This document shows positions 50,101 to 53,100 of a stretch of DNA of 64,000 bases, piece after piece. The position numbers are program-made. Location of the stretch: the NCBI RefSeq assembly GCF_013167455.1, contig NZ_CP038328.1. One strand, 5' to 3'. The stretch comes from Escherichia coli O157:H7 (GTDB lineage Bacteria; Pseudomonadota; Gammaproteobacteria; Enterobacterales; Enterobacteriaceae). Every line of letters begins with the position of its first letter. Position 1 is the stretch's first letter.

Positions 50101-53100
50101 GTTACGCCGCATCCGGCATCAAACGACTCAACGTTGTCCCGCTTCTGGTTTGCGCGATTTTTGCCAGTAAAAATGCTCGCGCAAACCTTCCGCCGACTCT
50201 TCCGCCACAGCACGCAATTCATCGCTGTCCGCTTCATGACGCAGCTGATGATCCACATTCTTTACCCACACAAATTCATGTCCTTTGTGCCCTGCCATGA
50301 GTTGTCCTGAGAACAGCGCACACGTTAATAAGACAACCGATAACGCCTTCGTAAACATCCTGCCACCTTTTTCTTACCTTTTGCCGCTATGATGCCGATC
50401 GTTTCTTGAGGTTATTATTCAGTTTTGCAAATTAGCGCAAAGAAATTCTGGAATCTTCCTTCCTGATTTTGCATTGCATTCTGCCGTTGCGGCGATTTAG
50501 TGCTATTTTCGAGCAAATTACACACGGAGGTAAACACTAATGTTTACTTTGTTGATATACTCAGCCGCAGGGAGGCGATGTGAAACAAAGCGAGTTCAGA
50601 CGTTGGCTCGAATCTCAGGGCGTCGATGTAGCGAATGGCAGCAACCATTTGAAACTCAGGTTTCATGGGAGGCGCAGTGTCATGCCGCGTCACCCCTGCG
50701 ATGAGATTAAAGAACCATTGCGTAAAGCAATCCTGAAACAACTCGGTTTGAGTTAATCGCCAATTAAAAAGGTTAATGACATGCGAGAGACAGTCGAAAT
50801 TATGCGTTATCCCGTCACTCTTACACCCGCGCCGGAAGGCGGTTATATGGTTTCTTTTGTGGATATCCCTGAAGCGTTGACGCAGGGCGAAACTGTCGCT
50901 GAAGCGATGGAAGCGGCAAAAGATGCTTTACTGACCGCATTTGATTTTTATTTTGAAGATAACGAGCTTATCCCTTTACCTTCGCCATTAAATAGTCATG
51001 ATCACTTTATTGAAGTACCTTTGAGCGTCGCCTCTAAGGTATTGCTGTTAAATGCTTTTTTACAGTCAGAAATCACTCAGCAAGAGTTAGCCAGGCGAAT
51101 TGGCAAACCTAAACAAGAGATTACTCGCCTATTTAACTTGCATCATGCGACAAAAATCGACGCAGTCCAGCTCGCGGCAAAGGCGCTTGGCAAAGAGTTA
51201 TCGCTGGTGATGGTTTAATTACAGTTAACGAAAAGTTGTCATTTTTAACAACTGATATAGACTGCCGAATCATCTGCACATAATTACGATTCGATAATGA
51301 AAAAATACCAGCAGCTTGCAGAACAATTACGCGAGCAGATTGCGTCGGGTATCTGGCAACCCGGCGATCGTTTACCTTCGTTGCGTGACCAGGTGGCGCT
51401 TTCTGGCATGAGCTTTATGACTGTCAGCCATGCCTATCAGTTGCTCGAAAGTCAGGGATATATTATCGCACGACCGCAGTCGGGTTATTACGTTGCGCCA
51501 CAGGCAATAAAAATGCCGAAAGTGCCAGTCATTCCAGTCACTCGAGATGAAGCAGTCGATATCAACACTTATATTTTTGATATGTTGCAGGCCAGTCGCG
51601 ATCCGTCGGTCGTTCCGTTTGCCTCGGCCTTTCCCGACCCGCGACTTTTCCCCCTCCAACAACTAAACCGCTCGCTGGCGCAGGTAAGCAAAACCGCCAC
51701 GGCGATGAGCGTGATTGAAAACTTGCCGCCAGGAAACGCAGAACTGCGTCAGGCTATTGCCCGTCGCTATGCCTTACAGGGGATCACCATTTCTCCTGAT
51801 GAAATTGTCATCACTGCCGGGGCGTTAGAGGCATTAAACCTCAGTTTGCAAGCGGTAACTGAACCGGGCGATTGGGTGATAGTAGAGAATCCTTGTTTCT
51901 ACGGTGCGTTGCAGGCGCTGGAGCGGCTACGGCTGAAGGCGTTATCGGTGGCGACGGATGTTAAAGAAGGGATCGATCTTCAGGCGCTGGAACTGGCGTT
52001 GCAGGAGTATCCGGTGAAAGCGTGCTGGCTGATGACTAATAGCCAGAATCCACTCGGATTTACCTTAACGCCGCAAAAAAAAGCACAACTGGTGGCGTTG
52101 CTCAATCAGTACAACGTAACGCTGATTGAAGATGACGTTTACAGCGAACTTTATTTTGGACGGGAAAAACCGCTGCCTGCGAAAGCGTGGGATCGCCACG
52201 ATGGCGTTTTGCATTGCTCTTCGTTTTCGAAATGTCTGGTGCCTGGTTTTCGTATTGGTTGGGTCGCCGCCGGAAAACATGCACGTAAAATTCAACGCTT
52301 GCAGCTGATGAGTACGCTTTCCACCAGCTCACCGATGCAGCTTGCGCTGGTGGATTACCTTTCCACGCGCCGATACGACGCCCATCTTCGTCGCCTGCGT
52401 CGCCAGCTTGCGGAACGTAAACAACGTGCCTGGCAGGCACTGCTGCGTTATCTGCCTGCGGAAGTGAAAATTCATCATAATGACAGCGGTTATTTTCTCT
52501 GGCTGGAGCTCCCCGAGCCGTTAGATGCCGGCGAATTGAGCCTGGCGGCACTGACGCATCATATCAGTATTGCGCCAGGTAAAATGTTTTCTACCGGTGA
52601 AAACTGGTCACGTTTTTTTCGTTTTAATACCGCGTGGCTGTGGGGAGAACGTGAAGAACAGGCGGTAAAACAATTAGGCAAACTTATTCAAGAACGGCTG
52701 TAATAGCGTTTAATTTAATTCCTCTTAGATTGGGTAATATGAATTTCGAATAGCAGTCATATTTCCTAACTCCTTGTCTATACTCCAGAAGATAACCTTA
52801 CAGACGGCATAATGCGCGGTAGCTCACAACCTGATTAAATTTTCTCAGGGGCGAAGGTGTGCCTGCAAGCCGCCGTCTATGGTTAAACAAGGAGATATTT
52901 TTACGGCACGGCGGCTGAACAATTAATTACGACAGGAGTAAGACCTTATGAGCAAGACATTTGCCCGCAGCAGCCTGTGTGCGCTCAGCATGACAATAAT
53001 GACCGCTCACGCCGCCGAACCGCCTACCAATTTAGATAAACCGGAAGGGCGACTGGATATTATCGCCTGGCCGGGATATATCGAACGCGGACAAACTGAT

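What the first reader, a model, noticed from the sequence alone, without database searches (positions are those of the whole stretch)
50520..51218. hicAB type II toxin-antitoxin module with a palindromic operator
HicA (58 aa, GTG start) and HicB are intact. A perfect inverted repeat GTAAACA-N4-TGTTTAC lies directly upstream, overlapping the likely -35/-10 region, consistent with HicB autorepression. The sequence alone cannot settle the HicB start (50781, which has the better RBS, versus the internal Met at 50802).
Basis: partly seen in the sequence, partly recalled or inferred. Interest (0 to 1): 0.35.

Follow-up and report, generated by a model that had tools for sequence, protein, structure and literature searches.

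The report
Known E. coli hicAB toxin-antitoxin locus
This is the well-studied chromosomal hicAB toxin-antitoxin operon of E. coli with its known HicB-repressed promoter, so the finding is correct but ordinary.

Summary
Window 50520-51218 is the E. coli chromosomal hicAB locus. HicA (GTG 50580, 58 aa) and HicB are 100% identical to the solved K-12 proteins (PDB 6HPB). The promoter region matches K-12 MG1655 except for one SNP at 50566.

The palindrome GTAAACA-N4-TGTTTAC (50530-50547) is real. Alone it is not significant: 12.6% of shuffles of the intergenic region give an equal repeat. It is, however, a clear phylogenetic footprint. It sits 49-51 nt upstream of the hicA GTG in 12 of 14 related loci from seven genera, while the flanks diverge.

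The operon has two promoters. P1 lies upstream, depends on CRP-Sxy and makes HicA and HicB. P2 is repressed by HicB at an inverted repeat (hicO) and derepressed by excess HicA. Its transcript starts at the hicA ribosome-binding site and yields only HicB. The palindrome covers about -40 to -23 of P2.

The HicB start stays open. Curated references use 50802 (138 aa). The better Shine-Dalgarno and conservation in close relatives mildly favour 50781.

Verdict: already known, low interest.

The parts
50530..50547 (.). Palindrome GTAAACA-CTAA-TGTTTAC, taken to be the HicB operator hicO. It covers about -40 to -23 of promoter P2.
   Evidence: Confirmed, and identical in K-12 MG1655. The motif GTAAnCA-N4-TGnTTAC is present in 13 of 14 related loci, 49-51 nt upstream of the hicA GTG in 12 of them, while the flanks diverge. 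The literature places an inverted-repeat operator hicO in P2 (PMC10865869; PMC11594946). Equating hicO with this exact sequence is my inference, because the primary paper was not readable.
50553..50561 (+). Extended -10 of promoter P2: TG-a-TATACT, with the hexamer at 50556-50561.
   Evidence: Read directly from the sequence. TATACT, TATAAT or TATCCT occupies the same position in the Escherichia, Citrobacter and Raoultella loci. Its position fits the published P2 start site 1 base upstream of the hicA RBS (PMC11878559). The consensus scan did not report it because there is no -35 match.
50569..50570 (+). Inferred transcription start of P2, at the 5' edge of the hicA Shine-Dalgarno.
   Evidence: [quoted passage not shown] Not mapped here.
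50570..50575 (+). hicA Shine-Dalgarno GGGAGG, 4 nt before the GTG.
   Evidence: Anti-SD duplex of -11.1 kcal/mol. GGAGG or GGGGG is conserved in the 10 loci compared.
50580..50756 (+). hicA, the mRNA interferase toxin: 58 aa, GTG start, catalytic His23 codon CAT at 50646-50648.
   Evidence: The GTG start is conserved in all 14 related loci examined. His23 is named as the catalytic residue in PMC8138530.
50769..50772 (+). Shine-Dalgarno-like AAGG serving the upstream hicB start ATG 50781.
   Evidence: AAGG or GAGG ends 7-8 nt before this ATG in every Escherichia, Citrobacter and Raoultella locus, with duplex energies of -3.4 to -6.5 kcal/mol.
50781..51218 (+). hicB long ORF (145 aa). The curated start is ATG 50802 (138 aa, 50802-51218). 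The HicA-binding N-terminal domain spans about 50808-51002 and the HTH_3 DNA-binding domain about 51063-51203.
   Evidence: RefSeq and K-12 annotate 50802-51218. UniProt HICB_ECOLI is the 138-aa form, while the 145-aa form is common among ab initio gene calls.
50400..50520 (+). Region that should contain promoter P1 and its CRP-S site, not located precisely. Candidates are an extended -10-like TGcTATTTT at 50501-50509 and a CRP-S-like TTTGC-N6-GCGCA at 50424-50439.
   Evidence: P1 is known only from the literature. My scan gave at best 7 of 10 core matches, so the placement is speculative.

Best explanation
This is the chromosomal hicAB type II toxin-antitoxin operon of E. coli, here in an O157:H7-like genome, and it should work as described for K-12.

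HicA is a small ribosome-independent mRNA interferase. HicB neutralises it through its N-terminal domain by covering catalytic His23. HicB dimerises and binds DNA through its C-terminal HTH domain.

Two promoters drive the operon. The upstream P1 depends on CRP-Sxy, is not repressed by HicB, and makes an mRNA that translates both HicA and HicB. The downstream P2 has the extended -10 TGaTATACT at 50553-50561. A HicB dimer bound to the 18-bp palindrome at 50530-50547 (hicO), over the -35 and spacer region, represses it. The two half-sites lie 11 bp apart, centre to centre, which is about one helical turn.

The P2 transcript begins at the 5' edge of the hicA Shine-Dalgarno (about 50569), so it cannot translate hicA and yields only HicB. 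Excess HicA destabilises the HicB-DNA complex and derepresses P2, which selectively replenishes antitoxin.

Shown here: gene and protein identity, presence and conservation of the palindrome, and the positions of the -10 and SD. Taken from the literature: the two promoters, repression by HicB, derepression by HicA, and the P2 start site. Inferred: that hicO is exactly this palindrome, and the geometry of binding.
For: - Locus identity: the 921-bp query is 100% identical to many E. coli O157:H7 chromosomes, which annotate hicA, hicB and the neighbour ydcR under the match. The other neighbours rlhA, yncJ and ydcS are annotated.
- The region 50359-50830 equals K-12 MG1655 except for C/G at 50566, so K-12 experiments transfer directly.
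- HicA and HicB are identical to PDB 6HPB chains A and B, and the Pfam domains score above gathering.
- The palindrome is the only perfect inverted repeat in the intergenic region.
- The operator motif is present in 13 of 14 related loci across Escherichia, Citrobacter, Raoultella, Superficieibacter, Pantoea, Serratia and Brenneria, and lies 49-51 nt from the GTG in 12 of them. Mean pairwise identity is 0.79 over its 14 specified positions, against 0.34 for the sequence upstream.
- Variation at arm position 5 is mostly uncompensated. That fits a protein-binding site rather than a hairpin.
- Literature: hicO is an inverted repeat bound by HicB dimers within P2. P2 makes HicB only, and its leader starts 1 base upstream of the hicA RBS. 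P1 is CRP-S/Sxy dependent. Excess HicA derepresses P2.
Against: - The primary paper (Turnbull & Gerdes 2017) and the structure paper (Manav et al. 2019) could not be read, so the exact hicO sequence was never checked against the palindrome.
- The palindrome alone is not statistically unusual (12.6% of shuffles).
- The window carries C instead of G at 50566, 3-4 nt upstream of the inferred P2 start. Its effect is unknown.
- No convincing CRP-S site or P1 -10 could be placed from sequence.
Confidence: 0.9

Rival explanations
1. Single-promoter autoregulation. One promoter overlapping the palindrome transcribes a message that makes both HicA and HicB, and HicB binding shuts both off equally.
For: This is the default model for type II TA loci. 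In the more distant relatives (L006, L011, L012) a near-consensus TTGAC(A/G)-17-TACTAT promoter overlaps two operator copies and would give a leader of about 22 nt that includes the hicA SD.
Against: For E. coli, several papers cite experiments showing two promoters. The repressed one gives a transcript truncated at the hicA RBS that makes only HicB. The E. coli sequence has lost the TTGAC -35 and the upstream operator copy, and it has a new -10 placed 11 bp further downstream.
Confidence: 0.04
2. The palindrome acts mainly as an RNA hairpin in the 5' leader of the P1 transcript, affecting hicA mRNA stability or translation, rather than as a protein operator.
For: The palindrome lies downstream of any upstream P1 start and so would be transcribed. 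It forms the centroid hairpin of the predicted leader fold, at about -8.4 kcal/mol.
Against: The fold is no better than shuffled sequence (z = -0.93; 35 of 200 shuffles fold at least as well). Changes in the arms are mostly uncompensated: GTAAGCA/TGATTAC, GTAATCA/TGTTTAC, and a broken closing pair in L007 and L010. The second copy in distant relatives sits 21 bp away on the same helical face and overlaps a -35, which is operator-like. No Rfam family matches.
Confidence: 0.04
3. The palindrome is a chance feature or the site of another regulator, and HicB binds elsewhere in the upstream fragment.
For: The palindrome is not significant on its own. The exact hicO sequence could not be checked in the primary paper.
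Against: It is strongly conserved in position and sequence across seven genera in which the surrounding DNA is unrelated, and it is always attached to hicAB. It is the only perfect inverted repeat in the region, and the literature says hicO is an inverted repeat in P2.
Confidence: 0.04
4. HicB start, option A (the curated view): translation begins at ATG 50802 and gives the 138-aa protein.
For: RefSeq, K-12 NP_415955.2 and UniProt HICB_ECOLI use this start. The 138-aa protein was crystallised with HicA (6HPB). The Pfam domain begins 2 residues after this Met. In Superficieibacter, Pantoea, Serratia and Brenneria, HicB can only start at the equivalent MRYP, because there is no upstream in-frame ATG and some loci have a stop codon.
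Against: The only SD-like element, GAGA, ends 14 nt upstream. An upstream in-frame ATG with a well-placed SD would normally capture ribosomes first.
Confidence: 0.38
5. HicB start, option B: translation begins mainly at ATG 50781 and gives a 145-aa protein with a 7-residue extension, MRETVEI.
For: AAGG or GAGG ends 7-8 nt upstream of this ATG in all Escherichia, Citrobacter and Raoultella loci. The ATG, the exact 21-nt in-frame spacing and the pattern M-R-[E/D]-x-x-x-I are kept in four diverged lineages, with synonymous CGA/AGA and ATT/ATC changes. Indels occur just upstream of the SD but never inside the 21 nt. Ab initio callers choose this start.
Against: The interval is only 21 nt and there are few independent lineages, so the statistics are weak. 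The extension is absent from the sister clade and is not needed for the fold or for HicA binding (6HPB). No experimental start-site data were found.
Confidence: 0.6

Closest known systems
E. coli K-12 hicAB (b4532/b1438; Jorgensen et al. 2009; Turnbull & Gerdes 2017; Manav et al. 2019, PDB 6HPB/6HPC)
   Same: It is the same locus. The neighbours are the same (rlhA, yncJ, hicA, hicB, ydcR). The HicA and HicB proteins are identical. The promoter region is identical apart from one SNP at 50566.
   Different: The only differences are strain-level SNPs; the window matches O157:H7-type genomes at 100%. Nothing functional distinguishes it.
Yersinia pestis hicA3B3 and Burkholderia pseudomallei hicAB
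   Same: Toxin-first gene order. HicB represses the promoter through palindromic operators that overlap core promoter elements. Excess HicA weakens DNA binding (PMC11594946).
   Different: Those HicB proteins use a ribbon-helix-helix DNA-binding domain and form tetramers. Y. pestis has two 15-bp operators and a single promoter. The double-promoter, antitoxin-only P2 has been shown only for E. coli.
IncI2 plasmid hicA(T)B with an internal 'hicA-specific' terminator (PMC11878559)
   Same: Toxin-first hicAB operon with HicB self-repression. The distant chromosomal relatives found here (L006, L011-L015) also carry a G/C-rich hairpin between hicA and hicB.
   Different: The window has no such hairpin. 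It has an SD and an extra in-frame ATG in that place. Apart from a few E. coli records, plasmid HicB proteins are below 50% identical to this one.
mqsRA and H. influenzae toxTA (reverse-order TA systems with extra antitoxin-favouring promoters)
   Same: The toxin gene comes first, and an additional promoter yields antitoxin without toxin. toxTA also has a CRP-S promoter.
   Different: The protein families are unrelated. Their antitoxin promoters lie inside the toxin gene rather than at its RBS.

Membership tests
HicA toxin (Pfam PF07927, COG1724) | Sequence matches the HicA_toxin profile above the curated threshold | tested here: met
   30.9 bits against a cut-off of 27, covering residues 5-57. 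100% identical to E. coli HicA in PDB 6HPB chain A.
HicA toxin (Pfam PF07927, COG1724) | Catalytic histidine (His23 in E. coli HicA) | tested here: met
   Residue 23 is His (codon CAT at 50646-50648). PMC8138530 names His23 as the sole known catalytic residue.
HicA toxin (Pfam PF07927, COG1724) | Ribosome-independent mRNA cleavage and growth arrest on expression | not testable with these tools
   Known for the identical K-12 protein from the literature.
HicB antitoxin, HTH type | N-terminal HicB-like (partial RNase H fold) toxin-binding domain | tested here: met
   PF15919, 32.8 bits against a cut-off of 27, residues 10-74 of the 145-aa ORF. Identical to 6HPB chain B.
HicB antitoxin, HTH type | C-terminal DNA-binding domain (HTH/XRE) | tested here: met
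   PF01381 HTH_3, 31.4 bits against a cut-off of 23, residues 95-141.
hicAB type II TA operon | Toxin gene immediately upstream of the antitoxin gene on the same strand | tested here: met
   hicA is 50580-50756 and hicB is 50781/50802-51218, both on the + strand.
E. coli hicAB two-promoter regulation (Turnbull & Gerdes 2017) | Inverted-repeat operator hicO in the HicB-repressed promoter P2 | tested here: met
   A perfect 7-N4-7 palindrome at 50530-50547, identical to K-12 and conserved in 13 of 14 related loci. HicB binding itself could not be tested here, and the exact published hicO sequence was not seen.
E. coli hicAB two-promoter regulation (Turnbull & Gerdes 2017) | P2 start site at the hicA RBS, so that the transcript yields only HicB | tested here: inconclusive
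   The -10 TATACT at 50556-50561 predicts a start near 50567-50570, next to the SD at 50570-50575. That agrees with the published description, but no start-site data could be retrieved.
E. coli hicAB two-promoter regulation (Turnbull & Gerdes 2017) | Upstream promoter P1 with a CRP-S site | tested here: inconclusive
   The best CRP-like cores score only 7 of 10, so no confident placement is possible. The sequence is identical to K-12, where P1 was shown experimentally.

The most novel reading that the evidence does not exclude
Two modest points are not excluded.

(1) In the Escherichia, Citrobacter and Raoultella clade, HicB may be made mainly from the upstream ATG (50781) as a 145-aa proteoform. 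The curated 138-aa start would then be wrong or only a minor form.

(2) The E. coli arrangement may be a derived rewiring. It has a single operator, a relocated -10 that yields an antitoxin-only transcript, and an SD plus a new ATG between the genes. The ancestral arrangement is still seen in Pantoea, Serratia, Brenneria and Superficieibacter. It has two operators 21 bp apart overlapping a TTGACA-17-TACTAT promoter that would make a toxin-competent mRNA, plus a G/C hairpin between hicA and hicB.
Probability: 0.5. Interest if true: 0.25.

Novelty: already known. Interest (0 to 1): 0.08.

Why it matters
It matters little. The locus is one of the best characterised type II TA systems, with crystal structures, mapped promoters and a published regulatory model.

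The check is still useful for annotation. It confirms an intact hicAB in this strain and corrects the simple autorepression reading to the published two-promoter circuit. It also flags that the HicB start codon is annotated inconsistently across databases, without any experimental support that I could find.

The comparative observations may interest TA specialists as a small evolutionary case. These are the fixed operator geometry across genera, the two regulatory architectures, and the repeated loss of hicA.

Tried and rejected
**Literature that could not be reached**
- The primary papers are not held: Turnbull & Gerdes 2017, Jorgensen 2009, Sinha 2009, Winter 2018 and Thomason 2015. The regulatory facts therefore come from papers that cite them.
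- A full-text search for the palindrome sequence found nothing.
- The Cappable-seq start-site supplement had no hicA entry or nearby coordinate.
- Start-codon data were absent: the Ribo-RET preprint has no held supplements, and the TRAINSPOTTER N-terminomics supplements do not list HicA or HicB.

**Searches that returned nothing useful**
- NCBIfam gave no hit for either protein.
- Rfam gave nothing relevant in 50000-51500, only a sub-threshold REP/naRNA4 match outside the finding.
- The sigma-70 consensus scan found no promoter upstream of hicA in the window, because P2 lacks a -35.
- The CRP/CRP-S scan gave only weak candidates, and reading Sondberg 2019 for the half-site rules did not resolve it.
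- Plasmid homologues of HicB, apart from a few E. coli records, are below 50% identical, too distant to add operator comparisons.

**Ideas considered and dropped**
- An RNA-hairpin role for the palindrome: z = -0.93 and the arm changes are uncompensated.
- A second 7-nt inverted repeat, CTTTGTT (50547-50553) with AACAAAG (50584-50590), 30 nt apart. I judge it to be chance. One arm is hicA codons 2-4, it is not conserved outside close relatives, and the spacing does not suit an HTH dimer.
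Full report
**What is there.** Window 50200-51500 was read directly and its ORFs listed. hicA runs from GTG 50580 to stop 50756 (58 aa). It is preceded by GGGAGG at 50570-50575. An ORF from ATG 50781 to 51218 (145 aa) follows, with a second in-frame ATG at 50802 (138 aa). Pfam assigns HicA_toxin to the first protein, and HicB_lk_antitox plus HTH_3 to the second. All three hits are above the gathering score.

**Identity of the locus.** A megablast of 50380-51300 against complete E. coli genomes hit 5414 of 5426 genomes. Identity was 100% to many O157:H7 chromosomes, which annotate hicA, hicB and ydcR under the match. The neighbours are rlhA, yncJ (minus strand), hicA, hicB, ydcR and ydcS. 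This is the same arrangement as K-12 MG1655 b1435-b1439. Region 50359-50830 is identical to MG1655 except for C in place of G at 50566. HicA is 100% identical to PDB 6HPB chain A. HicB is 100% identical to 6HPB/6HPC chain B (138 aa) and to 6U0I (145 aa plus tag). The finding is therefore the canonical, experimentally characterised E. coli hicAB locus.

**The palindrome.** GTAAACA (50530-50536), CTAA, TGTTTAC (50541-50547) is a perfect inverted repeat. It is the only one with arms of at least 7 nt and a spacer of at most 12 nt in the 221-bp yncJ-hicA intergenic region. By itself it is not remarkable. In 5000 dinucleotide-preserving shuffles of that region, 12.6% contained such a repeat. The 64-kb window has 106 of them.

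**Conservation of the palindrome.** Its significance comes from comparison with relatives.
- A scan of one genome per species with HicB returned 18 loci. Fourteen of them carry a full-length or near full-length hicB.
- Thirteen of the 14 contain GTAAnCA-N4-TGnTTAC. These come from Escherichia, Citrobacter, Raoultella, Superficieibacter, Pantoea, Serratia and Brenneria salicis.
- In 12 of the 13 the motif lies 49-51 nt upstream of the hicA GTG. The exception, L004, has an 11-nt deletion.
- In an ungapped comparison anchored on the GTG, mean pairwise identity is 0.79 over the 14 specified operator positions. It is 0.34 for the 59 positions upstream.
- Arm position 5 varies (A, G or T) and is mostly not compensated in the other arm. 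This is what independently evolving protein half-sites would show, and not what a hairpin would show.
- The predicted RNA fold of the leader is no better than shuffled sequence (z = -0.93).
- The half-sites are 11 bp apart centre to centre. That suits an HTH dimer contacting successive major grooves. This last point is inference.

**Promoter context.** Immediately downstream lies TGaTATACT (50553-50561), an extended -10. TATACT, TATAAT or TATCCT sits at the same place in the Escherichia, Citrobacter and Raoultella loci. It predicts a start near 50567-50570, at the 5' edge of the hicA Shine-Dalgarno.

**What the literature says.** I could not read Turnbull & Gerdes 2017 itself. Several papers that cite it agree on the following.
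- hicAB has two promoters.
- P1, upstream, has a CRP-S site and is Sxy dependent. It is not repressed by HicB and yields HicA and HicB.
[quoted passage not shown] Excess HicA derepresses it, and its transcript makes only HicB (PMC6957337; PMC8138530; PMC11594946).
[quoted passage not shown] With a start at about 50569, the palindrome spans about -40 to -23. It covers the -35 and spacer region, not the -10. That hicO is exactly this palindrome is my inference. It rests on this being the only inverted repeat in the right place and on its conservation.

It misses the published point that the palindrome-controlled promoter is an antitoxin-only promoter, and that hicA expression comes from a separate upstream promoter. 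I could not place P1 or its CRP-S site with any confidence. The best CRP-like cores match 7 of 10 positions. TGcTATTTT at 50501-50509 and TTTGC-N6-GCGCA at 50424-50439 are only candidates.

**HicB start.** RefSeq, K-12 NP_415955.2 and UniProt HICB_ECOLI use ATG 50802. Ab initio callers and PDB 6U0I use ATG 50781.

*For 50781:*
- AAGG ends 8 nt upstream, whereas 50802 has only GAGA ending 14 nt upstream.
- In the diverged Escherichia, Citrobacter and Raoultella lineages, three things are conserved: the upstream ATG, a well-placed AAGG or GAGG, and an exactly 21-nt in-frame interval.
- That interval encodes M-R-[E/D]-x-x-x-I, with synonymous CGA/AGA and ATT/ATC changes.
- Indels occur just upstream of the SD but not within the 21 nt.

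*For 50802:*
- The Pfam domain starts two residues after it.
- The 138-aa protein is sufficient for the HicA complex (6HPB).
- In Superficieibacter, Pantoea, Serratia and Brenneria there is no upstream in-frame ATG, so HicB must start at the equivalent MRYP.

I found no experimental start-site data. I lean mildly towards 50781 being used (about 0.6).

**Comparative by-products.**
- The distant relatives (L006, L011-L014) have two operator copies exactly 21 bp apart. The upstream copy's right arm contains TTGAC.
- In the three of these loci that were scanned (L006, L011, L012), the scan tool finds TTGAC(A/G)-17-TACTAT there. The downstream operator fills the spacer and overlaps the -10.
- These loci, and L015, also have a G/C-rich hairpin (AACCAGCCC-N4-GGGCTGGTT) between hicA and hicB. 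The scans of L006, L011 and L012 flag it too. This recalls the 'hicA-specific terminator' of IncI2 plasmid hicAB.
- E. coli and its close relatives lack the upstream operator, the -35 and the hairpin. They have a -10 moved 11 bp downstream and an SD plus an extra ATG before hicB.
- This suggests a shift from a toxin-competent to an antitoxin-biased architecture. That reading is speculative.

**Variation among E. coli genomes.**
- About 1194 of 5414 genomes do not cover 80% of the query. In the sampled rows most of these are one variant, seen in ST131 and Nissle 1917 among others.
- That variant carries a 445-bp deletion running from inside the left arm of the palindrome (after GGTAAA) to about 50979 in hicB. 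It removes P2, hicA and the HicB N-terminal domain.
- Another group has a 22-bp deletion in hicA (50697-50718) with hicB intact.
- hicA is also frameshifted or truncated in four related loci: Escherichia sp. E1V33, E. coli SCPM-O-B-8794, E. whittamii and Citrobacter sp. Cu233.
- Toxin decay with antitoxin retention is typical of chromosomal TA loci.

**Verdict.** Interest is low.

Noticed in passing
window 50535-50979 (compared with L021, E. coli Nissle 1917): About 1194 of 5414 complete E. coli genomes do not cover 80% of the query. In the sampled rows most are one variant, seen in ST131 and Nissle 1917 among others, with a 445-bp deletion that starts inside the left arm of the operator palindrome (after GGTAAA) and ends in hicB. 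It removes P2, hicA and the HicB N-terminal domain and leaves an HTH-only hicB pseudogene. A Citrobacter amalonaticus remnant (L017) has a similar deletion that starts inside the operator (…CTAAGCATAAATG|) and ends near HicB residue 67.
   Followed up: partly
window 50697-50718 (compared with L022, E. coli ATCC 43896): A subset of E. coli genomes (6 of the 40 evenly spaced rows in the spread listing) has a 22-bp deletion in hicA between short TGCG direct repeats. It is annotated as a frameshifted 'mRNA interferase', and hicB is intact. These strains also have TATGCT instead of TATACT at the P2 -10.
   Followed up: partly
L002, L004, L005, L008 (hicA region about 1230-1460): hicA is frameshifted or truncated in Escherichia sp. 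E1V33, E. coli SCPM-O-B-8794, E. whittamii and Citrobacter sp. Cu233, while hicB stays full length. This looks like repeated loss of the toxin with retention of the antitoxin.
   Followed up: no
L006, L011-L014 positions 1204-1246: Distant relatives (Superficieibacter, Pantoea, Serratia, Brenneria) carry two operator copies exactly 21 bp apart. In the three loci scanned (L006, L011, L012) they overlap a near-consensus TTGAC(A/G)-17-TACTAT promoter. E. coli keeps only the downstream copy and has lost the -35.
   Followed up: partly
L006, L011-L015 positions about 1455-1477: A G/C-rich hairpin (AACCAGCCC-N4-GGGCTGGTT) lies between hicA and hicB in the distant relatives. It has only a 2-T tail on the coding strand. 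It is absent from the window, where an SD and an extra in-frame ATG take its place. It resembles in concept the 'hicA-specific noncanonical terminator' described for IncI2 plasmid hicAB (PMC11878559). These hicB genes also lack a recognisable SD in four of the six loci.
   Followed up: partly
window 50566: A single C in place of G relative to K-12 MG1655 and to most other Escherichia sequences examined. It lies 3-4 nt upstream of the inferred P2 transcription start, and its effect is unknown.
   Followed up: no
window 50423-50442: A near-palindromic TTTTGCAAATTAGCGCAAAG lies between the divergent yncJ and hicA genes. It reads as TTTGC-N6-GCGCA and resembles a CRP-S site, with one good TGCGC half. 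It could belong to hicAB P1 or to the yncJ promoter. Nissle 1917, which has lost hicA, carries a C-to-A change in the conserved half.
   Followed up: partly
window 50088-50124: A sub-threshold Rfam match to naRNA4 (28.8 bits against a gathering score of 59.5), most likely a REP element in the rlhA-yncJ intergenic space.
   Followed up: no
window 48033-50036: The longest ORF for rlhA (ydcP) starts at GTG 48033 (667 aa), but RefSeq annotates a 653-aa protein starting at 48075. This is another start-codon discrepancy between the longest ORF and the curated annotation.
   Followed up: no
window 51236-51273: Two overlapping sigma-70-like promoter matches (TTGTCA-16-TAGACT and TTAACA-17-AATCAT) lie in the 78-bp gap between hicB and ydcR. 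A weak AGTTGT/ACAACT inverted repeat overlaps the first of them. No intrinsic terminator is detected after hicB.
   Followed up: no
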